A model generated the notes under the pieces. It made no database searches. It was given only the letters and a program-made list of their open reading frames with translations, and had not been told where the DNA came from. Below are positions 17,205-63,536 of a stretch of DNA of 64,000 nt, one piece after another (positions within the stretch are counted from its first letter, which is position 1; each line of letters begins with the position of its first letter). This stretch comes from a virus (taxonomy: Duplodnaviria > Heunggongvirae > Uroviricota > Caudoviricetes), in IMG/VR virus record IMGVR_UViG_3300043464_001836, positions 32,002-96,001 of that record; one strand, 5' to 3'. Position numbers and translations under genes: made by a program.

Positions 17205-17779
17205 AATTATTTACTCTTTTGTAGACAGTAGTTAGGGCACGCCTCACAAGGCTGGTGTAGCTGTGTAAGGGAACACTCAGTGCAACTTAGTTGAAATATT
17301 AATATCATTTTATCTCCATCAATTATTAGGTAATATACTTTCGTGGGTGGCCCCAACACTGGGCTAGCAGTGCATCTTCTGCTATTTATTTTCGATCCTT
17401 AAACCGCATCCTAGGTCTTGCCTATAGTGATGCCACACCGCAGTCTAAGTCACTTTCCTTCACCACCCCGAAAGTATACTAGGAAGCATACTAGCTTAGG
17501 GACTCACACCCTTTTGGTTAAATAACTTGTCTTAACTAGCATACTTTCTAATAGAGACTGTATTGGGTAATAAGGAACAGTCTCAAAACCTCAGCTATTA
17601 CTTAGGCAGCAATAGCAAACACTTCGTCGTTAGCATTTAATACTTTTGTGTCTTCGACCGGGAGAACCCAATCCTAACGGCTTTCACTTTGCCGATTCTA
17701 GCTTATCTATCCAACGCCTGTCGAATCCAATTCAGGCACATTATTAAGTACACTTCGCATTGCCATATTATGCTACTCT

Positions 17780-17870
17780 TATCCAGGGTTGGAATCGAAC
17801 CAACATCTAAGTGTACTTAATGGTGTACCTGGCGAACCTCGAAGTTCGCGTCCAAGCCTCTTCAATTTAA
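17780..17870 (-). tRNA. tRNA-like region; one or two genes, unresolved
   Basis: T-arms GTTGG-TTCGATT-CCAAC and CGAAC-TTCGAGG-GTTCG with CCA-type 3-prime ends. The 5-prime acceptor strands were not found. Confidence 0.3.
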
Positions 17871-18072
17871 GCTTACAACTTAAGCACTAAGGCTTAAGTA
17901 ACGAATTTCTTAATTACTATGCCAATTACCTACTTGATATAAAGCTATTAGCTTAGACTCTCTATGCATATCGTTTCTATGCACTCTAAAGTATGGCTTA
18001 TTCTTTCCTATTTGGAAATGATATAACCAAATACGCAAGTTAAATACAAGGTCTGACATAAATTTCCTTGTT

Positions 18073-27524: not shown

Positions 27525-29420
27525 TTTTATTCCTTAACTGAATACTTAGGCTAGATAGTGAGTTAAGCACTATCAGGGGAGCTACCCTTTTCGCCTTAAT
27601 TGGATGCGGCCGAGCGTACCGCCCGCTCTCCCTTTTGGGATATGAGCCCAAAGTCTGACTATCAGAAGCCGCAATTAATTCTACTAAGTAAAGCCCCTTA
27701 TACTTACTAGCTACGGGATAGTGACCGTACTATTACGTTATAAGTGTTGCCGGTACGCCTATCAACCGGCAGTTGCGCAGATATTCCTAATGTGGTTAAT
27801 TACGCCTATAGGATTATCATAAGCTTTGCTTTACTTAGTAAAACTGGGTAATGAGATGAAGTTTGTAACAGACTCAGTATAAACCTAGGATAAGTTTAGG
27901 GTCCTAGAACTGACATTTATACTGTACTAGTACTTGGTCTACTAGCTGACTACAACATTGGATAACCGTTGAGGTTATCCATCTCTTTATCATATAGAAG
28001 TAGCTGTTACACACGCAGCACTACCCATACGGTCGTTACGGCTAGAATCTTGGGATATTTAGAATTATCAAGATTAGCCTAGAGTCGACCGTTTCATGGC
28101 ATTTCAGCCAATCGTCAGTAGGTTTGTTTGTCCGATTAATACTGGTTTCATATCGGGAGGTTGCTAGTACACCAGTCCTATACCTAGTCATTATAAGGGT
28201 GTGCGTCAGACTAGGAGTTGAGCACAACAATCTCTAAATTTCAGTCTAGCTTTGAGGTACTAGAACAGACGCGCGGTATTAATTCGCCTAGAGTACTCAC
28301 GCGTTACCTCTAGGTAGAGGATAGGTGCTAAGGATACCAACCCTTAGTCTTTCATAATGTTATTGCACAAAGTGGGTTTACACCTATTTAGAAGTACCTG
28401 CTATTAAGACTTCCTAGCTTCCTCTGCCTGCAAAGCATTTCCACTAGTAGTTTCTTAAAATACGCCATACATTCAGTGATCCCGTACCCTCACGCTTGCA
28501 GACATAAGGTGTCCCGTACCAGTATATAGTCTTTGGTCGTACTGCAAATACTTCTAAATAATACTCTTTTCGTGAGTAACTCGCACTTCGTAACCGAGAA
28601 GTGTAGCAGCCTAGGTATATGGATTCTTTCCCTAGAGTCACTAGATTAACATTTCTGCTAATTGCCACACAGCGGAGCCTACTAATAATTTCGGACGCTC
28701 TGTACTAGTGTCTTAAAAGCTAGGGTGGCTGCGCTTGGCATAAACCCAGAAGGGTTTGTTCCTTTTAACACTAACCAGGGTTAGTGCCCTAACTCAGAAA
28801 TAATATTATACGACCTTAATCAAAGAATTTCAAGTTCAAAATCAGGAAAGTCTGCTTCAGTTTCTTGAGGAATAAAGCCTCGTTCAATCATGTCAAAGTA
28901 AACTACATCGTGCATATCAGCCGGAACAGAGAATTCGCCGAAAGACATTTTGTTATTCCTTCATCAAGTTAGAAAAGATATTTTACAGCACTTAAGACTT
29001 TGAAGCAACATCAAATTTCTGAACCGTAACAACCAGGAAGTTGCATCCCTTCGTTTCAGTAGCCGTTTACTCCGTCTTGCTTAGGACAGTGATTACAATT
29101 CAGAATTGATATTTTACAGTGTTTAACTTACTAGAACAACATCAGAATTTAGCGGTTGGCCCAGAGTTCCGCTTCACGCAAAAGACCTGCATCAACCAGC
29201 TCCCAATATCGACGATCAAACATGTTGAACTCCTTAATTCATTTCAGAAAAGATATTTTACAGCGTTTGACTTATTAGAACAACGTCAAAATTCTCAAGT
29301 TAGATGCCTAGCATGAAAGAGTAATACCACGGGACCTTTGACAATGGCACAGGATATTAGAGCTTACTAGTGTCGCCTTTGTATGTCAACTCAGGCTTTG
29401 ACGGTCTCTAGGAGATTTGT

Positions 29421-29568
29421 CATCTAACTTTAGAATCCCAGTTATTCGATCTGGGAACGCTTACTCGCTCAGGCTTTCGCGTGGAGCAGTAATTCATCTA
29501 ACTTTAGAATCCCAGTTATTCGATCTGGGAACGCTTACTCGCTCAGGCTTTCGCGTGGAGCAGTAATT
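29421..29568. repeat. Perfect tandem duplication, 2 x 74 bp
   Basis: Unit CATCTAACTTTAGAATCCCAGTTATTCGATCTGGGAACGC... occurs twice head to tail. It is followed by the class-B promoter cassette. Confidence 0.8.
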
Positions 29569-29634
29569 CATTTCAGAAAAGATATTTTACAGCGTTTGAC
29601 TTGTTACAACAACGTCAAAATTCTAAACTAGGGA

Positions 29635-34443: not shown

Positions 34444-34873
34444 ATTTTTCCTTAACAGGGTGAAAGGTATCTACAAGCAGCTTGCCAGCCACTCACAAAT
34501 ACTTTATATTGTAAGTCCCAAAACTCTTGATATTTCATAAATTTGGGGTCTACAGGTCTGGGCCCATATATCTTCTCAAAAGCTGAAAGAGCAGGGCTTA
34601 CCAAATTTGATTCGTTCATATAACCTCACTAGAATAATTTGTGGGTACAACAGGGTTAGCACTACATAAGCAAATACCTTATATAGCGTAGGATTGTATA
34701 GATAATTCATAGGTTTTCTCCATATTGAAATGATATTATACGCGTGCGTACCGTGTACTTCAAGCCTGAATTTATGTGGTTAGGCGCAGGGAGTAGCGAG
34801 AAGAGACATAAAATTTTACACTTACTTTTACACTAAAAACGCACTATAATATCCTTTCTGAAATTACTTAAAG

Positions 34874-43753: not shown

Positions 43754-43826
43754 GAACTGAACAGTTCGGCCCCACTAAGAGCTTAAGCTTTGAAGCTCTT
43801 AAGCTCTTAAGCTCTTAAGCTTTGAA

Positions 43827-43940
43827 GTTTGAAGTTTTGAAGTTTGAAGTTTGAAGTTTGAAGTTTGAAGTTTGAAGTTTGAAGTTTGAAGTTTGAAGTT
43901 TGAAGTTTGAAGTTTGAAGTTTGAAGTTTGAAGTTTGAAG
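43827..43940. repeat. Tandem 7-bp repeat (GTTTGAA)n, about 16 copies
   Basis: Uninterrupted GAAGTTT phase. Preceded by (GCTCTTAA)3 and followed by TTTGGGGTC. Confidence 0.8.
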
Positions 43941-43987
43941 TTTGGGGTCGAACAGTTCCTCAAATTCTTTTATAATTATTTCTTTAA

Positions 43988-54424: not shown

Positions 54425-54452
54425 AAAAAGCCGCTAAATAGCGGCTTTTTGC
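54425..54452 (+). terminator. Rho-independent terminator
   Basis: AAAAAAGCCGCTAAATAGCGGCTTTTTGC. Confidence 0.65.
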
Positions 54453-54628
54453 ATTTCTTGACCCCAAACCGTAGAAATCTGACAAATTGACCACAAACCA
54501 AGACATTTTAGAGGTTTTTGTGACTTTTTGTGGGTATTTGAAACTTGTGAGATTTTAGTAACTTTTGAGGTTTGGGGTAAACGGTTCAGCAGTTTTTCCA
54601 GTTTGGGGTAAGGCTTATAAATACACGG

Positions 54629-54658
54629 TTGACAATTATTGCTGTGGAGATGTATAAT
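54629..54658 (+). promoter_or_regulatory. Consensus sigma70 promoter (TTGACA, 18-nt spacer, TATAAT)
   Basis: TTGACAattattgctgtggagatgTATAAT. Confidence 0.6.
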
Positions 54659-54664
54659 AGGCGC

Positions 54665-54750
54665 CGTGTTGAATTTAGCGCAAAACTTACGACTTATAAC
54701 TTATAACTTATAACTTACAAGTCGTAAGCTGCTGGGTTTTTCCCCCAAAC
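54665..54750 (+). ncRNA. candidate small RNA: long hairpin (CTTACGACTT...AAGTCGTAAG) followed by a T-run
   Basis: Transcript predicted from the promoter at 54629. Ten-bp stem with a 23-nt (TAACTTA)n loop, then GGTTTTTCCCCC. Confidence 0.35.
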
Positions 54751-54858
54751 CGCAGAAACTGCTCAACCCCAGAATCTTGACCCTAAACTGGAGAACTTGC
54801 TGAGGTGTGGGTGTTGCATAGGTCACTACAGTTTGGGGTCAGGCACAGTAATTTGCGG

Positions 54859-54888
54859 TTGATTTTATACTATACGGAGATGTATAAT
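54859..54888 (+). promoter_or_regulatory. Near-consensus sigma70 promoter (TTGATT, 18-nt spacer, TATAAT)
   Basis: TTGATTttatactatacggagatgTATAAT. Confidence 0.55.
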
Positions 54889-54894
54889 GGGCGC

Positions 54895-54978
54895 CGAGTG
54901 GAATTTAACGCAAAACTTACGACTTATAAGTTATGAGTTACAACTTATAAGTCGTAAGTTTTGCGTTTTTACCCCAAA
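54895..54978 (+). ncRNA. candidate small RNA, paralog of 54665..54750
   Basis: Same hairpin (CTTACGACTTATAAG...CTTATAAGTCGTAAG) and T-run. Confidence 0.35.
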
Positions 54979-54999
54979 CCGCAGAAACTGCAGAAACTT

Positions 55000-55428
55000 C
55001 TAGGATTTAGTAAGGTCCTTTAATTCCAGTAGTAGATAGTTAATATTACCTACCGCTTTAGCATGATCCTTTTCAATAATAACTGGATCTTGAAGTATTT
55101 TAACAAAGAACTTTATTAGTGCTATTACTTCCTCCATAGTACTTCTAGGGAATAAAAAGTTCCACATATCCTGTTCTTCCGGAGTTGTTAAAGTACTTAA
55201 AACATCTACTTGCAGTATCTTAGGCCCCTCTTCTGAGTCTTCCATAGTAAGAGGTTCGCCACTTAGATACTTCTTATATAAATCACTATCTTTAAAGAAG
55301 GGCTTAGTTTTAGCTTTAACGTAGTACTTTAGTGTACTCTCCGGGATACCTATAGTTTGCGCAATATCTCCCCAAGTGTACCCTTGTTCCCTAGCTAGAG
55401 ATACAAGCTGCTTAATTTTATCATCCAT
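55000..55428 (-). CDS. HTH DNA-binding protein
   Basis: N-terminal HTH YTWGDIAQTIGIPESTLKYYVK. Confidence 0.45.
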   Translation of the reverse strand: MDDKIKQLVSLAREQGYTWGDIAQTIGIPESTLKYYVKAKTKPFFKDSDLYKKYLSGEPLTMEDSEEGPKILQVDVLSTLTTPEEQDMWNFLFPRSTMEEVIALIKFFVKILQDPVIIEKDHAKAVGNINYLLLELKDLTKS

Positions 55429-55657
55429 TTCTTAATTCTCCTATTACTACACTTTTCTATAAACTTACAACTTATGACTCATAACTTACAACTTATAACT
55501 TATAACTTACAAGTCGTAAGTTAATATTTTACCCCAAACCGCTAACCTGTTCAACCTCAGATTTTTACCCTAAACCGCGGAAATTAGGTTAGTCGCTACA
55601 GTTTGGGGTTGCGGGGGACTGCTACAGTTAGTTCAGTTTGGGGTCAGGAATCTGGCC

Positions 55658-55687
55658 TTGATTTTACATGATGTGGAGAAGTATAAT
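55658..55687 (+). promoter_or_regulatory. Near-consensus sigma70 promoter (TTGATT, 18-nt spacer, TATAAT) reading into the GGCGC-repeat and 9-mer array region
   Basis: TTGATTttacatgatgtggagaagTATAAT. Confidence 0.55.
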
Positions 55688-55900
55688 TGGCGCAGACTAG
55701 TACTAGAAACGAATTTTGAGGTTGACTCGGTTTCGTACTGGCGGGCGCAGAGATAATACTGATGTTGTTTCGATTTTGCACTAGGGCGCGTAGATAATTT
55801 TGCGCTTGTTTCACTTTTTCACTGGGGCGCGTGGCAAGCTTAAAATTGTTTCGTCGATTTACTACTCAGGCGCGGCGAAGCCGCGCTGGCCCGGAGGGCC

Positions 55901-56086
55901 AAACGTCAAAAACGTCAAAAACGTCAAAAACGTCAAAAACGTCAAAAACGTCAAAAACGTCAAAAACGTCAAAAACGTCAAAAACGTCAAAAACGTCAAA
56001 AACGTCAAAAACGTCAAAAACGCCAAAAACGTCAAAAACGCCAAAAACGTCAAAAACATCAAAAACATCAAAAACATCAAAAACAT
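55901..56086. repeat. Tandem 9-bp repeat (CAAAAACGT)n, about 20 copies, degenerating into CAAAAACAT x4
   Basis: Read directly from the sequence. The ORFs overlapping this stretch are repeat-translation artefacts. Confidence 0.85.
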
Positions 56087-56877
56087 GGATGCGAATGATT
56101 CTCACTAACTTCCTGGAAAACAACAAATCCACATTGTCTCACGCCGGCGGTAGGCTTGTCAATAACTCTAGAGGGTTATTTACAAAAAACTTTTTTCGTG
56201 GTAGCCATAAGAAAAACTTATAGCCATATAAAAAAATTTCATAGGCCGGCCTGGTGGATAGTATTTTTCTAGTGCTGTCAAATAAAATTTTTCTATAGCA
56301 AAAAACGCTTGTAAGTCTTTGATTCTAAAGAGAAATCCTAGAATCGACGTTCTCCTGCTGGCCTACACCCTGCTATCAATAAAGGGGAAAACGCCTCAAA
56401 ACGCCTCAAAACGCCTATAAACGGCAGTTGCGAAAAAACCACACTTTTTTGCAGGAAATTTGACCGTTAGCGTTTTTCGTGCTAGTGAAAAACCGCGCTT
56501 GACTACCTGCCAAATATCGTGCTATTCGTGCATGAAAAAATAATTGTTGCGCTTGGCTGATTATTGTGTTATCGCGTACACGTCTAAAGACTAAAAAGAG
56601 GCCGGAAAGAAAAAAGCCTTTAAAATCAAAGACTTAAAATTATTTTGAAATATCTTCAAAATTTTTTGAAAAACGCTTTACAGGGTCAGTCATAGTCTGG
56701 ATAATTCATCACATCGAAACAGCAACAGCAGCAAGGCAAGGCAAGGCAAGGCCTCCGGGCCATGCTGGCCAGGCCCTCGCTCTTTAAAAATTTGGAAAAA
56801 TCGGCTTTCTCCGGCGAGAGTATCAAATAGATGCCGCTTTAATAGGCGGCATTATTGGATAATTTTGTCCGAATTAA

Positions 56878-57087
56878 TTGGAGTTTATCATGATTGAAGT
56901 AATGGTTAATGGTAAATGGTTTGCAGTTCGTCAATCTTGCGGGATTTACCAGAAAATGATCTACGTAGAGTCTGGACACGGCATTTATTCCGGTTTTGAT
57001 GAACTGTCCAATATTCAAGGTTGGAAATTGGATGGGGAAATATCCAATTATGCTACCTGTAAGCAATTGCTCAAATTTACACGGTAA
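56878..57087 (+). CDS. hypothetical protein (GC-richer island)
   Basis: ORF whose codon usage differs from the rest of the window. Confidence 0.35.
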   Translation: MEFIMIEVMVNGKWFAVRQSCGIYQKMIYVESGHGIYSGFDELSNIQGWKLDGEISNYATCKQLLKFTR

Positions 57088-57186
57088 GAACTAATCAGGC
57101 ATTAACGCTTAATAATTAGGCGTTAATACCGGGCTATTTCAAAAAACCCGATTTCCCGTTTTTCAATTTTTTTTGGAGTAAATAGC

Positions 57187-57606
57187 ATGGCCGAAAGCAA
57201 AAAAACCCCGACGTGGACGCCGGAACAGACTGTTTCTCTTGTGGCCGCATGGGATGCGGTTAACCGGGACAATAAGCGTATCGACGAAGTAGCGGCAAAG
57301 ATGGGCCGTAGTGCCGCGTCCTGCCGCATGAAGCTTGTTCGGGAAGGCTTGTATCAAAAAGCGGAAAATCTGACAAAAACGGGGGAAAGCGTAATTTCCC
57401 GCGAGGAATTGGCTGATTCTATCGCCGCCTATCTGCCCGCCACCGTTTCTGATGACGTTAGCAGCCTCGCCAAGACGAATAAGCGAATTCTCAAAGCAAT
57501 CAAAAAATTGCTGGATGAAAACGCTCAATTCCGGAAAGCGGCAATGGAATCTTTCGAGACTGACGCGGAAACCGTGGAAACGGAAAACCCGGAATTGGCT
57601 GATTAA
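57187..57606 (+). CDS. hypothetical protein (island)
   Basis: ORF followed by a terminator. Confidence 0.4.
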   Translation: MAESKKTPTWTPEQTVSLVAAWDAVNRDNKRIDEVAAKMGRSAASCRMKLVREGLYQKAENLTKTGESVISREELADSIAAYLPATVSDDVSSLAKTNKRILKAIKKLLDENAQFRKAAMESFETDAETVETENPELAD

Positions 57607-57613
57607 TTAATCC

Positions 57614-57640
57614 ACGCCGGGGCAATTCCCGGCGTTTTAG
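57614..57640 (+). terminator. Rho-independent terminator
   Basis: CGCCGGGGCAATTCCCGGCGTTTT. Confidence 0.6.
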
Positions 57641-57733
57641 GAAATCAAAATGCGCTTATCAATATTTGTGGCGATTGTTTCGTGTCTTAGTTTTATCACG
57701 GCATTAATCAATTTTTTCTGTAAAGGTTAACCA

Positions 57734-57997
57734 ATGGAAATCTTGCCATACTTAGGAATTATGCTATTGACTGCCGGAAGTGTAGGCATTCGAGTTGCGC
57801 AGCAATTAAACGTAACCCGTGGATACTTTATTAGGGCATTCTTTACAAGTTACGTGTTCACGGCATTTGATGCCTTAGTCGTTGGAGTGTATGCAAAGTT
57901 AATGCTAGACGGCGACTATATCAAATTGATATTCGCCGGTACTGGTTCCGCATTAGGTGGACTAATTGTAATGTTTTTTTATAGGAAATCGAAATAA
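57734..57997 (+). CDS. small membrane protein (island)
   Basis: Two to three hydrophobic helices. Confidence 0.4.
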   Translation: MEILPYLGIMLLTAGSVGIRVAQQLNVTRGYFIRAFFTSYVFTAFDALVVGVYAKLMLDGDYIKLIFAGTGSALGGLIVMFFYRKSK

Positions 57998-58701
57998 TGG
58001 CAAAGAAGGCATGGTATTTGCTGGTTGATACCGAGACTACCCTATCGGGGCGCGTGGTTGATTTTGGCGCCATTATCGTTGATAGAAATGGGGAAATTCA
58101 TAAAAGAATCGCCGTATTAATCAAGGGCATTTTCGGCGTGGAAGAATTGTTTTTTGATGTTAATTCCAAAGACGAAATTTGGACAAAACGCGGATTGGAG
58201 AAACGGAATCAGAATTACGTGGAACATTTGAATAATGGAACACGAATGCTTGCGAGTGTATCGGCCATTAATAAATGGCTTATGCAAGCAATGATAACTT
58301 ATTCTCCAAGTGTAACCGCTTTCAATCTTGCTTTTGACAAAGACAAATGCCAAAAAACCGGAATTGACTTATCCATCTTTACCGATCAATTCTGTTTATG
58401 GCATCTTGCTTGCGGCCATTATGCGAACACGAAAGCTTACCGCGCGTTTATTCTGGATAACCATTGTATTAATCCGCCCACGGAATTGCGCAATTGCACG
58501 TATCAGACTAATGCCGAAGTAATGGCGTCTTATCTTTCCGGTGGCATGTTGCCACCGGAGCCGCATACAAGTTTGGAAGACTGTATCGACTACGAGTTGC
58601 CGATATTGAGAGCCATTCTCAAACGTAAAAAATGGCGTGAGAGGATAAAGCCGTATAACTGGCGGGATTATCAAATTCGGGATGCCTTCGTTGCAAAGTA
58701 G
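57997..58701 (+). CDS. DEDDh 3-prime-5-prime exonuclease (DnaQ/oligoribonuclease-like)
   Basis: Exo I LLVDTETT, Exo II FNLAFD, Exo III HTSLEDC (H-x4-D). Confidence 0.6.
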   Translation: MAKKAWYLLVDTETTLSGRVVDFGAIIVDRNGEIHKRIAVLIKGIFGVEELFFDVNSKDEIWTKRGLEKRNQNYVEHLNNGTRMLASVSAINKWLMQAMITYSPSVTAFNLAFDKDKCQKTGIDLSIFTDQFCLWHLACGHYANTKAYRAFILDNHCINPPTELRNCTYQTNAEVMASYLSGGMLPPEPHTSLEDCIDYELPILRAILKRKKWRERIKPYNWRDYQIRDAFVAK

Positions 58702-58714
58702 GACAGGAACCACC

Positions 58715-58828
58715 GGCCTGTGGTGGCCTGTGGTGGCCTGTGGTGGCCTGTGGTGGCCTGTGGTGGCCTGGGGTGGCCTGGGGTGGCCTGGGGTGGCCTG
58801 GGGTGGCCTGGGGTGGCCTGGGGTGGCC
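58715..58828. repeat. Tandem 8-bp repeat (GGCCTGTG x5, then GGCCTGGG x7)
   Basis: Read directly from the sequence. Intergenic. Confidence 0.85.
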
Positions 58829-58875
58829 TGGGGTGGCAGTAAAAACTTTTCTTTTATCTTTTTGGGGTAATTAGC

Positions 58876-59157
58876 ATGAACAAAAAACAGTTCGCAGAAA
58901 TTGGTGGTAAAGTTTTTCATTTTCCGGCCTATGGCATTACCATTGCAATTCGAGAGGCATGTAAAAACGGCGATTTTCTGCACTTTGCCATCGCACAATG
59001 CAGCAATGCGGACACCTACAGCAAGAAACGCGGAAAACGCATTGCACTAGGTTATATGTCTGTAGGTGGTTATATGGCAATTAGGAAGGGGAAACTGCAA
59101 AGCATGCGAAAGCATGCCGAATACATCGCGGCATTTTTTGGCAATGGGACGAATTGA
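58876..59157 (+). CDS. hypothetical protein (island)
   Basis: ORF followed by a hairpin. Confidence 0.4.
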   Translation: MNKKQFAEIGGKVFHFPAYGITIAIREACKNGDFLHFAIAQCSNADTYSKKRGKRIALGYMSVGGYMAIRKGKLQSMRKHAEYIAAFFGNGTN

Positions 59158-59379
59158 TTAATTAACCGGAATTCGCCAGCCTAATAAGCTGGCGAATTAA
59201 TAGAATGAAAAATTCAATAATACAGCCAATCTTCTATCCTATCTTATGGAAAGAATATTGTAGAGTTATGCGAATTCACCCATATAGTCAATGGGAGTAT
59301 TTAAAGAAGCATAAACAGGATTATATGGATTTCATAGCCTTATATTTGAATTACGATCAAGTAACCGGGGTGAAATAAA

Positions 59380-59571
59380 ATGCCAGCCTATACATTCTTA
59401 ATTCGTCGTAATGGAATGAATTATTTTGTTTTAGTGCGGGGATTAAAATTCGATTACATCAGACAGGAAACCTATTACGCCACAATCAAAAAACTTTGTA
59501 AGCAATTAAAAACTGAAAAAGCGGCAATTGCTTATATTGATAAAATGAAAAAATTATTGGGCGACGAATAA
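59380..59571 (+). CDS. hypothetical protein (island)
   Basis: ORF followed by a hairpin. Confidence 0.35.
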   Translation: MPAYTFLIRRNGMNYFVLVRGLKFDYIRQETYYATIKKLCKQLKTEKAAIAYIDKMKKLLGDE

Positions 59572-60030
59572 AAACCGCTTGCAAAGTGTACGGAAAGCCG
59601 GATAGAATATCGGCTTTCCAATACAGGATGAATGAGATGAAAAAAATCCTTGCATTTTCTGAGTATCAGCGGGTTAACTTCTATAAGACTCGCCGTGTTT
59701 CGTTTTTTCAAATTTTGGTCGATATATTATTCCGGTAAAAAACGCTTGACAAAATCGCGGACACCTGCTACACCGCGATTTTGTCAGTTGTTTCACTTTT
59801 ATCACTTCCAGGGGGGCGGTTATCAGACTTTTCATTTTCCGTAACCCTATCGCACCCCCGCGCGCGGTAAATTAAAAAATTTATCAAAACTAGAATATAT
59901 TGTACTGTACTGTACTGACCCCAAACTGTAAATCTTGTCAGTTTGTTCTAGTTAAAAATAGGCTTGATTTTATATTCGTATTATTGTAGAATGCACTAAC
60001 AGTTAAAAATTCTACTACCAAAAGAAGGCC

Positions 60031-60477
60031 ATGTCAACCAACGAAATAGTTCCCATCTCCCCTGAGTCTCTAGAAATAATGCAAGTGTACCTTAGCACTC
60101 AGTCAATCGCTGAAACTGCTAGGCGTTTAGGTATACATGATACTCTAGTGTCCCAATATTTAAATAAGCCCGAAGTTAAAAGATACCTAGACCACGTATA
60201 CCTAAGTAGCGGGTACCGAAATAGGGATAAGATAGCAGAAGTTATGGACTCGGTTATCGAGACTAAACTCTCTGAGATGGTAGAAACTGGTCTAGGTAGT
60301 ACTAAAGATATTGCAGACTTGCTGACGCTAGCTCATAAGATGCGTATGGACGAATTAAAGGCTATTACGGAATACGAAAAAGCTAAAGAAGGTTCTAGTA
60401 TCAAAAAGCAAACCAATATTCAAATCAACAATAACCAGCCTAATTACTCAGACTTACTTGGAAAACTGTTAGGCTAA
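60031..60477 (+). CDS. Terminase small subunit-like HTH protein
   Basis: N-terminal HTH SIAETARRLGIHDTLVSQYLNKPEV. Located upstream of the terminase large subunit. Confidence 0.45.
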   Translation: MSTNEIVPISPESLEIMQVYLSTQSIAETARRLGIHDTLVSQYLNKPEVKRYLDHVYLSSGYRNRDKIAEVMDSVIETKLSEMVETGLGSTKDIADLLTLAHKMRMDELKAITEYEKAKEGSSIKKQTNIQINNNQPNYSDLLGKLLG

Positions 60478-60520
60478 TTAAAAACTACTAGCCTACTAAG
60501 GCTAATTTAAGGAGAAATAA

Positions 60521-61354
60521 ATGAGCTTCCCAATTTTTAGAAATTCATACGAGTGGACTACTGTAACTACTAGTGGTGAAAACATTCGTGCCACTAACCG
60601 CAAAACCGGCGAAACCTTCACAGGTACTCTAGCCGCTTTCGATGAACTAATGAACGATAGACTAGAAGGTATCGGTCTAGTTGCCCAGTCTACTATTCCC
60701 GTCGGCATCGCCCCAAGTGGTTCAGTTGCCCCTAATGGAGCTATTACTCTAGGTACAGCTCTACCAGTTATCTACTCTAGTGGTATCTGGCTAGCTCTAC
60801 CTGCTGATGCTGCTTATACTGATGCACCCGCCGGAACCTATTGGTGTGTAATGTCTAGCACTACTGTTGGTACTGTATACGACGAAGTGCTAGTTGGCGT
60901 TCCTACTATTCCTAGCGCCCCTACAGCAATCGTAGATGCTCGCGAAGCAACTAACTACACTGGCGTTACTACTGAAGTTGCCCTAGTTACTGCTACTGTA
61001 GCTGGCGGACTAGTTGGTGCTAACGGTTCCATCAAGATTAACTTCGCTGGATCGCAGAACTCTTCTGCTGGTGCTAAGACCTATGTAGTTAAGGGTGGAG
61101 CAGGAACCTGGCTATCTAGCGCTGCTACTACAACCGCTTCAGCTCTATACGACTTTACTGTTGGTAACCGCGGTAGTGCTGCTGTTAACTTTAGTACTGG
61201 CGTAAACGCTAATGGCCTAGGTGCTCGTGGTTTCCTAGCAACTACTGTAGATACTGCTAGCAACTTCAACGTTACTTTCAACGCTACTCTAGCCGTTGCT
61301 ACTGACTACGTTCTTTATGAGCACGTAGAAGTCCTAGTAGCCCCCAAACTGTAA
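60521..61354 (+). CDS. Gly/Ala/Thr-rich putative virion structural protein
   Basis: Low-complexity beta-rich composition. A strong hairpin terminator follows. Confidence 0.4.
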   Translation: MSFPIFRNSYEWTTVTTSGENIRATNRKTGETFTGTLAAFDELMNDRLEGIGLVAQSTIPVGIAPSGSVAPNGAITLGTALPVIYSSGIWLALPADAAYTDAPAGTYWCVMSSTTVGTVYDEVLVGVPTIPSAPTAIVDAREATNYTGVTTEVALVTATVAGGLVGANGSIKINFAGSQNSSAGAKTYVVKGGAGTWLSSAATTTASALYDFTVGNRGSAAVNFSTGVNANGLGARGFLATTVDTASNFNVTFNATLAVATDYVLYEHVEVLVAPKL

Positions 61355-61524
61355 AAACTTAGTAGGCCGGTGATTTATATGCACCAGCCTACTAACCTTT
61401 AATTATTCTTAAGTGTTCCTACGAATGCTTAAGAATAATTAACGGAGGTGACACGGAGTTGCAACTCCTTCTAGGTTCCTAACTAGATAGCCTCCACCTA
61501 CATAGTCCTATAGGAGGGACAAAA

Positions 61525-62244
61525 ATGATTGATGATAAATTAGTAGAAGAGATTTACGCTGCGTTAGTTGAACGGTTTGGTATTAGTGAAATATTCTTGC
61601 CTAAGAGGGGTAAGAATAGACCATTAGATATAACTTGGAAGGACTTTATTAAAGCTGCTTTAGAGCTAGAGCCAACAGAGTTATATAGCTTCTGTGGTTA
61701 TGCTAATAAAGTTAATTTTAGCAAGGGGCTAAAGAATACACATCCTAATATAATGCTAGATAAAGATGGAAGACATTGGGCAGGGTACTTACTATGTCTA
61801 GTTGGCTATAAACTATGCCCAGAATGTGGTGAAGTGCTACCTACATCAGTATTTAGTCACAGTAATAGTACAAAAGATGGATTACAGTCTACCTGTAAAG
61901 GCTGCGACGCTACCTCTAGGGAAGCAAATAAAGAATACTTTAAAGAGTACTCTAAAAAATATTACGCAGCAAATAAAGAATACTTTAAAGAGTACTATGA
62001 AAGTAACAAGCACCTGTATATAGCTTATAGTGCGAAACGCAGAGCTTCAAAGCTTAAAGCGACCCCAAAATGGGCAAACCTGGTAGCCATAAAAGAAATT
62101 TACCAAACATGCCCAGAGGGGTATCATGTAGACCATATAATTCCACTTCAAGGTAAATTAGTGTGTGGTCTTCATTGTGAGTTCAATCTACAGCATCTTC
62201 TAGCTAGTGAGAATTTAATTAAAGGTAATAGGTTCGAAGTATGA
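61525..62244 (+). CDS. HNH homing endonuclease (family 1 paralog) between the terminase genes
   Basis: Shared N- and C-terminal modules. Confidence 0.8.
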   Translation: MIDDKLVEEIYAALVERFGISEIFLPKRGKNRPLDITWKDFIKAALELEPTELYSFCGYANKVNFSKGLKNTHPNIMLDKDGRHWAGYLLCLVGYKLCPECGEVLPTSVFSHSNSTKDGLQSTCKGCDATSREANKEYFKEYSKKYYAANKEYFKEYYESNKHLYIAYSAKRRASKLKATPKWANLVAIKEIYQTCPEGYHVDHIIPLQGKLVCGLHCEFNLQHLLASENLIKGNRFEV

Positions 62245-63536
62245 TAAAAGTATCCAGACCCGATATCAGCAGTACAGAAATTCAACAGTTCTCAGCACAT
62301 GAACGTTTTATTAAGCTTCCTATTGATAAGTACTTAGAATTACTAGGCATGACTCTTAATGCACCTCAAATTGCAATAGTTAATGCGCTTAATAACCCTA
62401 AGTATAGATTCGTTACTGCTGCAGTATCTCGTCGCGTTGGTAAGACTACAATTTCTAACATCATAGCACAAGTAATTACTCTAGTACCTGGAAGTGCGGT
62501 ACTGATCATGTCTCCTAACTACTCCCTTTCTAGTATTTCATTTGAAGAGCAGCGTAAGCTGATCAAGAAATTTGACCTAGAAGTGAGTCGTGATAATATG
62601 AAGGACCGAATGATAGAACTATCTAATGGTTCTAGCATCCGTATGGGTTCCGTATCACAAGTTGACTCAGTTGTTGGCCGTTCATATGACCTCATTCTCT
62701 TTGACGAGGCGGCCTTAACGACTGAGGGTAAAGAGGCGTTCGAAGTTGCTTTAAGGCCTACCCTAGATAAACCTAATTCTAAAGCTATTTTTGTCTCCAC
62801 ACCACGTGGACGCTTAAATTGGTTTTCTCAGTATTGGGAAAACGGGTTCTCCGACCTACCGGCCTATTCTAAGTGGGCTTCAGTTCATGCAGACTATAGA
62901 GCGAATCCTCGCGCAAACGAAGAAGATATTGAAGAAGCTCGCGCTACTATGTCTAAAGCCAAGTTCGAGCAGGAATACATGGCTAGCTTTAGCGTATTCG
63001 AGAATCAGGTATACAAGTTCGATGCCGATGCTAGCGTAGTTGAAGTTGATACTAGCGGAATGGAACATATCATGGGTATCGACGTTGGTTTCCGGGACCC
63101 TACCGCTATGCTAGTTCTAGCGTTTGATGGTGAGAAGTTCTATGCTGTAGACGAGTATCTAGAAGCAAACAGAACAACTGACGAACATGCAGCTGTATGT
63201 AAAGAGCTAGAAAGTAAGTACGACGTACAGGTAATCTTTATTGATTCCGCAGCACAGCAGACTCGCTTCGACTGGGCACAGAATCACGATATCTCTACTA
63301 CTAACGCTACTAAGTCAGTTCTAGATGGTATCGCCTATGTTCAAGCAATTGTGGAGCAAGGTAAGCTAGTTGTTAGTCCTAAGTGTAAACATACGCTAGC
63401 AGCACTAGACCAGTACCGCTGGGATCCTTCACCAAGTCTATTGCGTGAGAAACCACTTCATGACCAGTTTTCCCACGTTGCGGATGCGCTTCGCTATGCG
63501 TTATACAGCTATCGTAGTAACGTTGGCATATATTAA
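62241..63536 (+). CDS. Terminase large subunit
   Basis: Walker A VSRRVGKTT, Walker B LILFDEAA and a C-terminal nuclease-like domain (MGIDVGFRDPTA). ATGA overlap with the HNH gene. Confidence 0.8.
   Translation: MIKVSRPDISSTEIQQFSAHERFIKLPIDKYLELLGMTLNAPQIAIVNALNNPKYRFVTAAVSRRVGKTTISNIIAQVITLVPGSAVLIMSPNYSLSSISFEEQRKLIKKFDLEVSRDNMKDRMIELSNGSSIRMGSVSQVDSVVGRSYDLILFDEAALTTEGKEAFEVALRPTLDKPNSKAIFVSTPRGRLNWFSQYWENGFSDLPAYSKWASVHADYRANPRANEEDIEEARATMSKAKFEQEYMASFSVFENQVYKFDADASVVEVDTSGMEHIMGIDVGFRDPTAMLVLAFDGEKFYAVDEYLEANRTTDEHAAVCKELESKYDVQVIFIDSAAQQTRFDWAQNHDISTTNATKSVLDGIAYVQAIVEQGKLVVSPKCKHTLAALDQYRWDPSPSLLREKPLHDQFSHVADALRYALYSYRSNVGIY

What the first reader, a model, noticed from the sequence alone, without database searches (positions are those of the whole stretch)
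55690..56090. GGCGC-containing 45-bp repeats followed by a 20-copy 9-bp iteron-like array
Downstream of the 55658 promoter are four degenerate repeats of C(T)GGGGCGCG(T)AG-ATAAT-TTTGC-TGTTTCG-TTT. After these comes (CAAAAACGT)x20 and then (CAAAAACAT)x4. The ORFs over the array are artefacts. An iteron array beside strong promoters in an ORF-free zone is typical of a replication origin, a partition or packaging site, or an injection-stop or terminal-repeat boundary. The GGCGC cores may relate to site-specific nicks.
Basis: partly seen in the sequence, partly recalled or inferred. Interest (0 to 1): 0.6.

Follow-up and report, generated by a model that had tools for sequence, protein, structure and literature searches.

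The report
Variable repeat array in T5-like phage
The 20-copy 9-bp array is real, but it is a fast-changing, non-coding tandem repeat in the control region ahead of the first-injected ("pre-early") genes of a T5-like phage, and it is not a replication-origin, partition or packaging iteron.

Summary
A 9-bp array (20 full units plus one partial, 55898-56084) follows four or five degenerate 41-48-bp GGCGC units and two GC hairpins, downstream of a sigma-70-like promoter at 55658.

The window comes from a freshwater T5-like phage. The array lies in a 1.46-kb ORF-free region directly upstream of an A2-type pre-early operon, which is followed by terS and TerL. A sister lineage has A1 in that operon. 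By position this matches T5's untranslated "repeat regions" in the first-step-transfer DNA and terminal repeat.

The array behaves as a VNTR. Near-identical genomes carry 20, 19 or 18 full units with reshuffled variant units, while about 520 bp of flanking sequence is 100% identical. Two sister lineages keep the GGCGC units, the hairpins and a leftward promoter. In that slot they carry unrelated 25-bp and 39-bp arrays. terS (100% identical) and the HTH regulator (95%) do not change with the array.

There are no DnaA boxes, no initiator or Par genes, no Rfam match and no conserved ORF.

Best reading: this is a slippage-driven minisatellite in a T5-type pre-early control region. Its sequence is not what selection sees. 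A role in injection pausing or nicking cannot be tested here. Interest is modest.

The parts
54425..54450 (+). Intrinsic terminator that closes the upstream early-gene block. It marks the left edge of the non-coding control region.
   Evidence: Terminator scan: 11-bp stem followed by a T-run. Conserved in L020 and L150.
54629..54658 (+). Promoter-like site P1 (TTGACA-18-TATAAT followed by AGGCGCC), the first of three paralogous promoter modules.
   Evidence: 12 of 12 consensus positions. Repeat family D7. Present in L020 and L150.
54859..54888 (+). Promoter-like site P2 (TTGATT-18-TATAAT followed by GGGCGCC). It is followed at 54907-54967 by a perfect inverted repeat with 26-nt arms built of AACTTAT heptads, then a T-run.
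   Evidence: I13; hairpin -38.7 kcal/mol, z -10.5.
55000..55428 (-). 142-aa helix-turn-helix gene, flanked by AACTTAT heptad repeats (54684-54720, 54917-54960, 55462-55512). It is a swappable regulator cassette.
   Evidence: Weak Pfam hits to HTH_23 and Sigma70_r4_2. L150 has different HTH genes (152 and 188 aa) with different heptads (TTTACAC, TTTACG) at the same place.
55526..55648 (.). Four copies of the dispersed motif ACCCCAAACYG: two on + and two on - (seen as CAGTTTGGGGT), just upstream of P3.
   Evidence: 27 copies of CCCYAAACYG in the window against 0.31 expected. Repeat families D4 and D6.
55658..55687 (+). Promoter-like site P3 (TTGATT-18-TATAAT followed by TGGCGCA).
   Evidence: 10 of 12 consensus positions. 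Paralogue of P1 and P2 (D7). This segment is absent from lineage L020.
55689..55865 (+). GGCGC units U0-U3 (41-48 bp each, consensus CTnGGGCGCGnAGAnAATTTTG..GTTGTTTCG.TTT..CA).
   Evidence: (D9). 84% identical to L020 3013-3216. 100% identical in L002 and L150.
55866..55900 (.). Unit U4, which consists of twin GC hairpins (GCGCGGC-GAA-GCCGCGC and GGCCC-GGA-GGGCC). It forms the left border of the array slot.
   Evidence: Fold -24.4 kcal/mol on either strand. Conserved in L002, L150, L020 and L024.
55898..56084 (.). The 9-bp array: one partial unit, then 12 CAAAAACGT, then CGC, CGT, CGC, CGT, then 4 CAAAAACAT.
   Evidence: Alleles of 18 units (L002, L150, L151, L154) and of one CAT unit fewer (L006).
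56133..56162 (-). Conserved leftward promoter-like site PL (TTGACA-18-TGnGACAAT) that points into the array. It sits in the conserved block 56117-56259, the right border of the array slot.
   Evidence: 10 of 12 consensus positions plus TG. The hexamers are kept and the spacer varies in L020 and in both L024 copies. The block is 88.8% identical to L020.
56388..56416 (+). AAAACGCCTC x2.9, a 10-bp repeat sharing AAAACGC with the variant units of the big array.
   Evidence: Kept as AAAACGCCTT x3.6 in L150 and as AAAACGCG/AAAACGCC in L024. Deleted in L020.
56677..56705 (+). Promoter-like site (TTTACA-17-GATAAT), the one closest to the pre-early operon.
56890..59571 (+). Pre-early-type operon: 65-aa gene, A2 homologue (57187-57606), 87-aa membrane protein, 234-aa protein (where the sister lineage has A1), 93-aa and 63-aa genes.
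   Evidence: The 139-aa protein hits phrog_1725, the family that holds T5 A2. hhalign against T5 and PG07 A2 gives E 9e-4. The L020 549-aa protein hits phrog_1745 (A1) at E 7e-121 and is 35% identical to A1 of T5-like phages.
60031..63536 (+). terS (60031-60477), a 277-aa gene, an HNH insert (61525-62244) and TerL (62241-63536). These fix the orientation relative to T5.
   Evidence: phrog_3802 at E 9.5e-41. Terminase_6N and Terminase_6C domains and 50% identity to Demerecviridae TerL. The HNH gene is absent from L002 and L150.

Best explanation
The array is a non-coding, hypervariable minisatellite (VNTR). It sits in a fixed 'slot' of the repeat-rich control region upstream of the pre-early (first-step-transfer) operon of a freshwater T5-like phage. 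By position this region is the counterpart of T5's untranslated repeat regions in the terminal repeat.

Shown:
- Units are gained, lost and reshuffled faster than point substitutions accumulate in the flanks.
- Sister lineages keep the flanking elements: the GGCGC units, the twin GC hairpins and the leftward promoter PL.
- Those lineages fill the slot with unrelated arrays.
- The array does not co-vary with terS or with the HTH regulator.

Inferred:
- The array is made and resized by slipped-strand mispairing or unequal recombination. The self-complementary ACGT in every unit would help by stabilising slipped hairpins.
- Selection acts on the flanks and at most on generic properties of the filler: length, A/T tracts, and being transcribed from P3 rightward and PL leftward. 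It does not act on the 9-mer as a protein-recognition site.

The array is therefore not an origin, partition or terminase iteron. Whether the region as a whole contributes to a T5-style injection pause is unknown.
For: Context:
- TerL is 50% identical to Demerecviridae. The window also has a split NAD ligase, a D5-like regulator, DnaB and primase and a tRNA block.
- The 139-aa gene is an A2 homologue. A1 sits at the same operon position in L020.
- The order A2-(A1)-terS-TerL matches Vibrio phage PG07. The gene order mirrors T5, where these genes lie in the terminal repeat.

VNTR behaviour:
- The window allele is T12-C-T-C-T-a4 (20 full units). The L002, L150, L151 and L154 allele is T10-C-T3-C-a3 (18 full units). 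L006, 99.5% identical overall, lacks one CAT unit.
- Meanwhile 55660-56317 is otherwise 100% identical between the window and L002, against about 92% in the coding DNA.

Slot behaviour:
- L020 and L024 keep the GGCGC units plus hairpins (84%) and the PL block (89%).
- Between them they carry 39-bp x1.9, 9-bp T-tract x4 and 25-bp x8.1 (x5 in L024) arrays.
- The distance from hairpin to PL block is 216, 198, 330 and 276 bp in the window, L002, L020 and L024.

No co-variation:
- terS residues 17-87 are 100% identical between the window and L020. The HTH protein is 95% identical.
- In L150 the HTH cassette and its heptads are swapped while the array block is unchanged.

General tendency to form arrays:
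- TTTGAAG x17.6 at 43821-43944, and GGCCTGKGGT x12.3 at 58715-58837. The latter is replaced by GTAGCACCCC x15 in L002 and x10 in L150.
- L020 has additional 26-bp x7.4 and 66-bp x3.9 arrays.

Slipped structures: the minus-strand RNA of the array folds at -52.9 kcal/mol, z -7.5.

Parallel with T5: Davison notes that the T5 repeat regions are better conserved than the ORFs of the terminal repeat. The same holds here: non-coding blocks are 82-94% identical against 80% for the adjacent coding DNA.
Against: - An array of some kind is present in the slot in all three lineages seen. A second slot (58.7 kb) also holds two unrelated 10-bp arrays in close relatives. This could mean selection for having a repeat there, rather than mere tolerance.
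- The roughly 700-bp block around the array is 100% identical between phages whose neighbouring modules differ. That pattern could reflect strong function or recent horizontal exchange.
- AAAC recurs every 9 bp both in the array and in the dispersed CCCCAAAC motif. A related AAAACGC x3 element 300 bp away is conserved. A binding protein is therefore not excluded.
- Only three lineages were available.
- No reads were available, so the terminal-repeat assignment rests on synteny alone.
- The promoters are consensus matches only.
Confidence: 0.6

Rival explanations
1. The array is a sequence-specific protein-binding platform (iteron-like). It would load or titrate a phage DNA-binding protein, either the A2-type protein encoded just downstream or the unknown factor that reads the dispersed ACCCCAAACYG motif. 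The many AAAC-N5 repeats would let the protein polymerise along the DNA and regulate the convergent promoters P3 and PL, or pre-early shut-off.
For: - The dispersed motif has 27 copies against 0.31 expected and clusters around P1-P3. In some copies it continues as 9-bp units (CCCCAAAC|CGCAGAAAC|TGCAGAAAC).
- L020 has ten consecutive 9-bp units (GCCCAAACT, GTAAAAACC) upstream of terS.
- The array junction GGCCAAACGTCAAAAAC resembles the motif.
- AAAACGCC x3 at 10-bp spacing is conserved in three lineages.
- A2 diverges between lineages (79-81% identity) in step with the array type.
Against: - A position weight matrix of the motif scores the junction only in the top 0.4% of all positions, with a negative score, so the resemblance is weak.
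- No solitary copy of the 9-mer exists elsewhere in the 64 kb.
- Abutting 9-bp units put successive sites on different helical faces.
- Co-variation of A2 with the array is equally expected from common descent.
- The replacement 25-bp units share no AAAC-N5 pattern.
Confidence: 0.17
2. The array and its flanks form part of a T5-type injection-stop signal or the boundary of the first-step-transfer DNA. After the pre-early operon and its promoters have entered the cell, the repeat block stalls further DNA transfer, through unusual DNA structure, bound protein or a nearby nick.
For: - Taking the predicted left end as near 59.6-60.0 kb, the array is the first large repeat met after the operon and its promoters in order of entry.
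- T5's candidate stop region is likewise a maze of repeats that includes a 23-bp x4.1 array and the 7.9% nick.
- GGCGCR x5 on the predicted nicked strand resembles R/GCGCRGG.
- In sister contigs the gene after TerL carries a precomputed Pfam hit to a T5 nicking-endonuclease family.
- T7 also has short-repeat arrays between its terminal repeat and the early host promoters.
Against: [quoted passage not shown]
- Similarity to T5 repeat region 3 does not exceed shuffled controls.
- The HTH gene lies beyond the array. If it is pre-early, as T5 ORF11-17 are, the stop must lie further left.
- Arrays are absent from the matching regions of PG07 and T5.
- Array sequence and length are not conserved.
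- The window lineage lacks A1 within this window.
Confidence: 0.12
3. The GGCGC units are a cluster of site-specific nick sites for the phage's T5-type nickase. Recurrent nicking next to a short repeat drives its expansion, which would make the array a by-product of nicking.
For: - The annotated T5 nick sites read GCGCAGGG or GCGCGGG on the nicked strand, and the published consensus is R/GCGCRGG (PMC3517423).
- GGCGC is under-represented in the window (27 against 42.7 expected), yet 9 of the 27 lie in 54660-55873.
- All five GGCGCR in the finding are on the + strand, which corresponds to T5's nicked strand by synteny.
- A paper listed (PMC11626148; title and abstract only were read) reports that recurrent nicks drive (GAA)n expansions.
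Against: - None of the units matches the full T5 consensus. The only exact RGCGCRGG site is at 34783.
- In P1-P3 the GGCGC lies directly after the -10 hexamer, where it can equally be a GC-rich discriminator.
- The other arrays (43.8 kb, 58.7 kb) have no GGCGC beside them.
- The specificity of this phage's nickase is unknown.
Confidence: 0.08
4. The array is the iteron set of a replication origin, a partition centromere, or the terminase recognition (pac) site.
For: It is a tandem array in an ORF-free, promoter-rich zone. terS and TerL lie 4-6 kb downstream.
Against: - No initiator, ParA/ParB or ParR-like gene is adjacent.
- No DnaA boxes.
- GC skew changes sign near 35 kb, where gene orientation flips, and not here.
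- T5 origins are reported near the genome centre.
- The 9-bp abutting units are unlike 17-22-bp phased iterons (general knowledge).
- The terS DNA-binding half is identical in a lineage with different arrays.
- The array is replaced in relatives.
Confidence: 0.03

Closest known systems
Untranslated 'repeat regions' 1-3 of the phage T5 left terminal repeat (Wang 2005 annotation in AY587007; Davison 2020, bioRxiv 10.1101/866236)
   Same: - A non-coding, kilobase-scale block beside the A2/A1 pre-early operon.
- It carries several strong host-type promoters, direct and inverted repeats, palindromes, a short tandem array (T5: 23 bp x4.1) and GCGC-type nick motifs.
- It is better conserved among relatives than the neighbouring ORFs.
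   Different: - No detectable sequence similarity to T5.
- No DnaA-box pairs.
- Much longer and more homogeneous arrays (20 x 9 bp), which differ between sister lineages.
- The region is compressed: about 5.5 kb between the early genes and terS, against 10.1 kb in T5.
- A1 and dmp were not found in the window.
- Terminal-repeat status was not shown.
Short-repeat arrays at the left end of phage T7 (CCTAAAG-type repeats between the 160-bp terminal repeat and promoters A1-A3)
   Same: Arrays of short direct repeats in the first-entering, non-coding DNA just before the host-RNA-polymerase early promoters. As far as I recall their function is also unsettled; I did not check this.
   Different: T7's repeats have a period of about 13 bp, 4-6 copies and are imperfect. 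T7 belongs to a different phage family with different entry mechanics. No homology.
Bacterial and phage VNTRs / minisatellites (slipped-strand repeats)
   Same: Head-to-tail near-perfect units. Copy-number alleles among near-identical genomes. Interspersed variant units. Non-coding location. The repeats break short-read assemblies.
   Different: The array sits in a conserved slot that always holds some array in the three lineages seen. This is not typical of random microsatellites.
Plasmid and phage iterons and ParR/omega-type centromere repeats
   Same: Tandem direct repeats near promoters. The AACTTAT heptads beside the HTH gene do behave like such operator repeats, because they co-vary with the regulator.
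   Different: For the 9-bp array itself there is no cognate gene, no co-variation, no conservation and no helical phasing.

Membership tests
T5-type pre-early (FST) untranslated repeat region | Lies next to the A2-A1-dmp pre-early operon | tested here: met
   An A2 homologue lies 1.1 kb downstream. A1 is at the same operon position in sister lineage L020. However, A1 and dmp were not found in this window.
T5-type pre-early (FST) untranslated repeat region | Lies inside the long direct terminal repeat | not testable with these tools
   No reads or genome ends were available. The assignment is inferred from gene order matching T5 and PG07.
T5-type pre-early (FST) untranslated repeat region | Several strong host sigma-70 promoters together with many direct repeats, inverted repeats and palindromes, conserved better than the flanking ORFs | tested here: met
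   Five strong consensus promoter matches. 19 direct-repeat families and 41 inverted-repeat pairs in 2.6 kb. Non-coding blocks are 82-94% identical against 80% for coding DNA.
T5-type pre-early (FST) untranslated repeat region | Paired DnaA boxes in large inverted repeats (IRD'-spacer-IRC'), reported in all 25 T5-like phages compared by Davison | tested here: not met
   No TTWTNCACA box in 54-60.1 kb. Only three one-mismatch sites, two of them within predicted promoter elements.
T5-type pre-early (FST) untranslated repeat region | Sequence homology to T5 repeat regions | tested here: not met
   Best local alignments are no better than dinucleotide shuffles. One 16-mer in L024 is borderline.
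T5-type nick site (R/GCGCRGG) | Match to the consensus on the nicked strand, and a physical nick | tested here: inconclusive
   The units read GGCGCAGA, GGCGCGTA, GGCGCGTG and GGCGCGGC, i.e. one or two mismatches each, on the strand predicted by synteny. Nicks cannot be observed with these tools.
Iteron-type replication origin | Phased iterons of about 17-22 bp beside their initiator gene, with DnaA boxes or an AT-rich unwinding element | tested here: not met
   The units are 9 bp and abut one another. There is no initiator gene, no DnaA box and no skew switch.
Partition centromere (parS/parC) | Adjacent ParA/ParB or ParM/ParR genes | tested here: not met
   None appears among the neighbours scanned with Pfam and PHROGs.
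Terminase recognition site (pac/cos) | Adjacent to or inside terS, and co-varies with the terS DNA-binding domain | tested here: not met
   The array is 4 kb from terS. terS residues 17-87 are 100% identical in L020, whose arrays differ.
VNTR / minisatellite | Near-perfect head-to-tail units, copy-number alleles among near-identical genomes, non-coding location | tested here: met
   The non-triplet arrays in relatives exclude coding.
Known structured RNA (Rfam) | Covariance-model match at or near the gathering score | tested here: not met
   No match in 55430-56890 at either threshold. The leader fold gives z -1.6.

The most novel reading that the evidence does not exclude
The 'array slots' are functional in themselves. 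Selection would keep some long, homogeneous short-unit array at fixed positions: after the twin hairpins in the pre-early control region, and after the 234-aa gene. The unit sequence would be free to turn over. The array could serve as a physical or protein-coated brake for two-step DNA entry, or as a tunable spacer between the convergent promoters. The arrays would be actively regenerated, perhaps by nick-triggered expansion at the adjacent GGCGC sites by the phage's T5-type nickase. That would tie together T5's two unexplained features, site-specific nicks and the injection stop.
Probability: 0.1. Interest if true: 0.7.

Novelty: new member of a known kind. Interest (0 to 1): 0.33.

Why it matters
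As it stands this is a tidy but ordinary result. It identifies the window as a divergent freshwater T5-like phage, places the array in the pre-early control region, and shows the array is a VNTR, not an origin, partition or packaging site.

The value lies in comparison. This lineage has a compact pre-early region of about 5.5 kb without DnaA boxes, with a swappable regulator cassette, and in some members without A1. If isolates are obtained, that narrows what a T5-type injection-stop signal can minimally consist of. The DnaA-box model can then be tested directly.

The variable arrays are also practical strain markers. They explain why short-read assemblies of these phages break at exactly these points.

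Tried and rejected
- Megablast and blastn of the region against 50,697 phage records found nothing.
- My single metagenome scan used the hairpin 17-mer CGCTGGCCCGGAGGGCC. That scan was wasted.
- Three exact-pattern scans of IMG/VR returned only contig L002. Protein-seeded scans with A2 and the HTH protein added nothing new.
- Homology to T5 repeat regions was rejected. A shared TGAGAATCATTC 12-mer, and a 16-mer in L024, looked promising, but alignment scores are within the shuffle range.
- Derivation of the array from the dispersed CCCCAAAC motif is kept only as a lead. The position weight matrix score is weak.
- A structured leader RNA was rejected: z -1.6 and no Rfam match.
- A coding repeat protein (KNV/SKT/TFL repeats) was rejected, because relatives have 25-bp units.
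- The GGCGC units as promoters were rejected by inspection: hexamer spacings are 12 or 19-24 bp.
- IHF sites and DnaA boxes were not found (inspection for IHF; for DnaA).
- A contig start at window 55660 (L002) was considered as a possible genome end. I rejected this because L150, of the same lineage, runs straight through it.
- Pfam, NCBIfam and PDB sequence searches of the 234-aa protein gave nothing.
Full report
**1. The observation**

The sequence at 55690-56090 is as described.
- Tandem Repeats Finder reports a 9-bp array at 55901-56084 with 20.4 copies, 97% matches and score 333.
- Parsed unit by unit it is one partial unit (GCCAAACGT), then 12 CAAAAACGT, then CGC, CGT, CGC, CGT, then 4 CAAAAACAT. 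That makes 20 full units. The title's "20-copy" is right, and the text's "x20 and then x4" over-counts.
- The 9-mer AAAAACGTC occurs 14 times in the window, all in the array, against 0.45 expected.
- Upstream lie degenerate units of 41-48 bp beginning at 55689, 55737, 55781 and 55822, and a shorter last one of about 35 bp at 55866 (TRF: period 41, 76% matches; alignment). The last unit is two GC hairpins at 55869-55900 (-24.4 kcal/mol).
- GGCGCR occurs five times in 186 bp, all on the + strand, out of 13 in the entire window on both strands.
- The promoter-like site at 55658-55687 is TTGATT-18-TATAAT.

**2. What genome this is**

- TerL (62241-63536) has Terminase_6N and Terminase_6C domains and is about 50% identical to TerL of Demerecviridae (Vibrio phage PG07 and T5-like coliphages and Salmonella phages).
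- terS hits phrog_3802.
- The left part of the window holds T5 hallmarks: a split NAD-dependent ligase, a D5-like regulator, DnaB and primase, and a block of 14-16 tRNAs.
- The contigs that carry identical or near-identical genes come from environmental metagenome assemblies.
- No cultured phage shares nucleotide similarity with the region.

**3. The neighbourhood**

The stretch 54430-56890 is a 2.4-kb control region with a single gene, a 142-aa HTH protein on the minus strand (55000-55428).
- It contains three paralogous modules. Each has copies of a dispersed motif (ACCCCAAACYG; 27 copies in the window against 0.31 expected). These are followed by a sigma-70-type promoter that ends in TATAAT-nGGCGC: P1 at 54629, P2 at 54859 and P3 at 55658.
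- P1 and P2 are followed by palindromes built of AACTTAT heptads. The same heptads lie in front of the HTH gene.
- To the right of the array is a conserved leftward promoter-like site, PL (56162-56133, TTGACA-18-TGnGACAAT). Its hexamers are kept in L020 and in both L024 copies while its spacer varies.
- P3 and PL therefore face each other across the GGCGC units, the hairpins and the array.
- Further right lie an AAAACGCCTC x2.9 repeat and another promoter-like site at 56677.
- The operon begins at 56890.

**4. The operon is pre-early**

- The 139-aa protein (57187-57606) hits phrog_1725 at E 1e-5. T5 A2 (E 4e-52) and the PG07 gene upstream of A1 (E 3e-21) belong to the same family.
- A profile comparison with T5 and PG07 A2 gives E 9e-4 over 102 columns.
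- In sister lineage L020 the operon runs 65-aa, A2-like, 88-aa and then a 549-aa protein. That protein is an A1 homologue: phrog_1745 at E 7e-121, and 35% identical over its full length to A1 of T5-like phages.
- The order A2-A1-(dmp)-terS-TerL matches PG07.
- Reversing the window gives T5's order: TerL, terS, then the terminal repeat with dmp, A1, A2 and the promoters, then a divergent gene set, a repeat region, and early genes pointing back toward it.
- The array therefore lies in the counterpart of T5's untranslated repeat regions of the first-step-transfer DNA.
- By synteny the terminal repeat would span roughly 54.45 to 59.6-60.0 kb. This is an inference; nothing here shows the physical ends.
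- T5 A1, A2 and dmp find nothing in the window by tblastn. In the window lineage a 234-aa protein of unknown function occupies the A1 position.

**5. Relatives**

Three lineages could be compared.

(a) L002, L150, L151 and L154 are about 92% identical to the window in coding DNA.
- From 55660 to 56317 they are 100% identical to the window outside the array (for L002; searches show the same sequence up to the PL block in L150). By eye, identity to L150 starts near 55617.
- The array differs: T10-C-T3-C-a3 (18 full units) against T12-C-T-C-T-a4 (20 full units) in the window.
- L006, 99.5% identical overall, lacks one CAT unit.
- The array has therefore changed at least twice while about 520 flanking bases changed not at all.

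(b) L020 and L021 have an A2 protein 79% identical to the window's.

(c) L024 has an A2 protein 81% identical.

Lineages (b) and (c) keep the GGCGC units and twin hairpins (84% identity) and the PL block (89%). Between these they have 39-bp x1.9, a T-tract 9-bp x4, and 25-bp x8.1 (x5 in L024) arrays of unit AAAGACAAAAAGGTCCGAATATATT. There is no CAAAAACGT. The hairpin-to-PL distance is 216, 198, 330 and 276 bp in the four genomes. L020 also lacks the P3 segment. It has expanded other local motifs (26 bp x7.4, TTTTATA x8, 66 bp x3.9).

**6. What the array is not**

- Not coding. The 25-bp units in relatives cannot keep a reading frame, and no ORF is shared.
- Not the operator of the HTH regulator. 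In L150 the HTH cassette is replaced by two different HTH genes. The heptads change with it (TTTACAC, TTTACG), while the array block stays identical. Between the window and L020 the HTH protein is 95% identical while the arrays differ.
- Not a terS site. All 71 terS residues held for L020 (aligned to window residues 17-87) are identical to the window's, and terS is 4 kb away.
- Not an origin or centromere. There is no initiator or Par gene and no DnaA box in 54-60.1 kb. The cumulative skew minimum is at about 35 kb, where gene orientation flips. T5 origins are reported to be central.
- Not a known RNA. Rfam gives nothing, and the leader fold is unremarkable (z -1.6).

**7. What it most likely is**

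It is a minisatellite in a slot that tolerates, or possibly requires, repeats.
- The genome is generally prone to arrays: TTTGAAG x17.6 at 43821 and GGCCTGKGGT x12.3 at 58715.
- At the 58.7-kb position L002 has GTAGCACCCC x15 and L150 has x10. This is a different unit with the same period.
- These arrays also account for several contig ends in short-read assemblies, for example L006.
- Every 9-bp unit contains the palindrome ACGT. The minus-strand transcript folds into one long regular hairpin (-52.9 kcal/mol, z -7.5). I infer that this self-complementarity helps slipped intermediates.
- With A5 tracts every 9 bp and not every 10.5 bp, simple geometry gives no net planar bend, only a superhelical path. 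This is inference and was not computed.

**8. Leads that remain open**

- The GGCGC cores resemble the T5 nick consensus R/GCGCRGG. They lie on the strand that corresponds to T5's nicked strand. The gene after TerL in sister contigs carries a T5 nicking-endonuclease Pfam hit.
- None of the units matches that consensus fully, however. In P1-P3 the GGCGC could simply be a GC-rich discriminator after the -10 hexamer.
- AAAC recurs every 9 bp in the array, in some copies of the dispersed motif, and in a ten-unit 9-bp array upstream of terS in L020. A position weight matrix test of that link is weak.
- Similarity to T5 repeat region 3 does not exceed shuffled controls.

**9. Comparison with known systems**

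- The closest in position and kind is the T5 set of repeat regions. They have the same neighbours, the same mix of promoters, repeats and palindromes, and the same pattern of non-coding DNA being better conserved than the ORFs.
- The match fails on DnaA boxes and on sequence homology. Terminal-repeat status could not be tested.
- T7 offers an analogue: CCTAAAG-type arrays between its terminal repeat and the early host promoters.
- The array meets every criterion of a VNTR.

**10. Verdict**

The array is a new member of known kinds, both a phage VNTR and a T5-type pre-early repeat region. Interest is about 0.33. It would rise if arrays in these slots prove to be selected, or to be linked to nicking or injection pausing.

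Noticed in passing
window 17602-17879 (-): Rfam match to permuted tmRNA (RF04321): 74 bits against a gathering score of 47, E 2.4e-12. It lies inside the phage tRNA cluster (14-16 tRNAs, 13.5-31.1 kb, minus strand). ARAGORN did not call it.
   Followed up: no
window, 27 sites (e.g. 54462, 54743, 54972, 55532, 59919; list): Dispersed motif (T)GACCCCAAACYG, often followed by a weaker nARAAAY. It has 27 copies against 0.31 expected, many clustered in the non-coding control regions around P1-P3 (not checked for all 27 sites), in both orientations. It is probably the site of an unknown regulator, comparable in use to T5's dispersed DRD repeat.
   Followed up: partly
window 54629-54967 and 55658-55687; L150 7484-7600: Three paralogous strong promoter-like modules (P1-P3). 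P1 and P2 point toward the convergent HTH gene. Each is followed within about 20-30 nt by a long heptad palindrome plus a T-run (the P2 hairpin has 26 perfect pairs, z -10.5). They would make short hairpin RNAs of roughly 70-80 nt, or act as operator-plus-terminator units.
   Followed up: partly
window 55000-55428 (-) versus L150 7606-8681 (-): The HTH regulator cassette is swapped between phages that are 100% identical in the adjacent block. One 142-aa gene with AACTTAT heptads is replaced by two genes (152 and 188 aa, the latter with an internal 135-bp x2 repeat) with TTTACAC/TTTACG heptads. The co-variation points to heptads acting as operators.
   Followed up: partly
window 57997-58701 (+) versus L020 4922-6571: The A1 'DNA transfer protein' (549 aa) of the sister lineage is replaced in the window, L002, L150 and L145 by an unrelated 234-aa protein (only a phrog_20187 hit; no Pfam, NCBIfam or PDB match). 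No A1 or dmp homologue exists anywhere in the 64-kb window.
   Followed up: partly
window 58715-58837; L002 2917-3065; L150 11805-11904: A 10-bp array directly after the stop codon of the 234-aa gene: GGCCTGTGGT x5 plus GGCCTGGGGT x7 here, but GTAGCACCCC x15 (L002) or x10 (L150) in phages about 92% identical. The period and place are the same, the unit differs, and the G-rich strand is opposite. Both have G4 runs spaced 6 nt apart, which fits the G-quadruplex motif on one strand.
   Followed up: partly
window 43782-43944: A CTTAAGCTTTGAAGCT x3.9 array followed by TTTGAAG x17.6, just after the NAMPT gene. It ends in GTTTGGGGT, a copy of the dispersed motif.
   Followed up: no
window 61525-62244 (+), and 11614, 19592, 25461, 46353, 48304: At least six paralogous HNH/endonuclease VII-like genes (phrog_1035). 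The one between the 277-aa gene and TerL is absent from L002 and L150, so it is a recent mobile insertion beside the terminase.
   Followed up: partly
window 34783-34790 (+): The only exact match to the T5 nick consensus RGCGCRGG (GGCGCAGG) in the window. It lies near the point where gene orientation switches, on the strand predicted to be nicked.
   Followed up: no
window 29420-29571: A perfect 74-bp x2.1 tandem duplication in the tRNA-rich region.
   Followed up: no
window 59749-59812 and 55784-55824: The tail of the GGCGC unit (TTGTTTCACTTTT) recurs after a 13-bp perfect hairpin (GACAAAATCGCGG...CCGCGATTTTGTC) in the intergenic region before terS. There are 3 matches to TTGTTTCRNNTTT against 0.21 expected. 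This suggests the units are terminator-like modules.
   Followed up: partly
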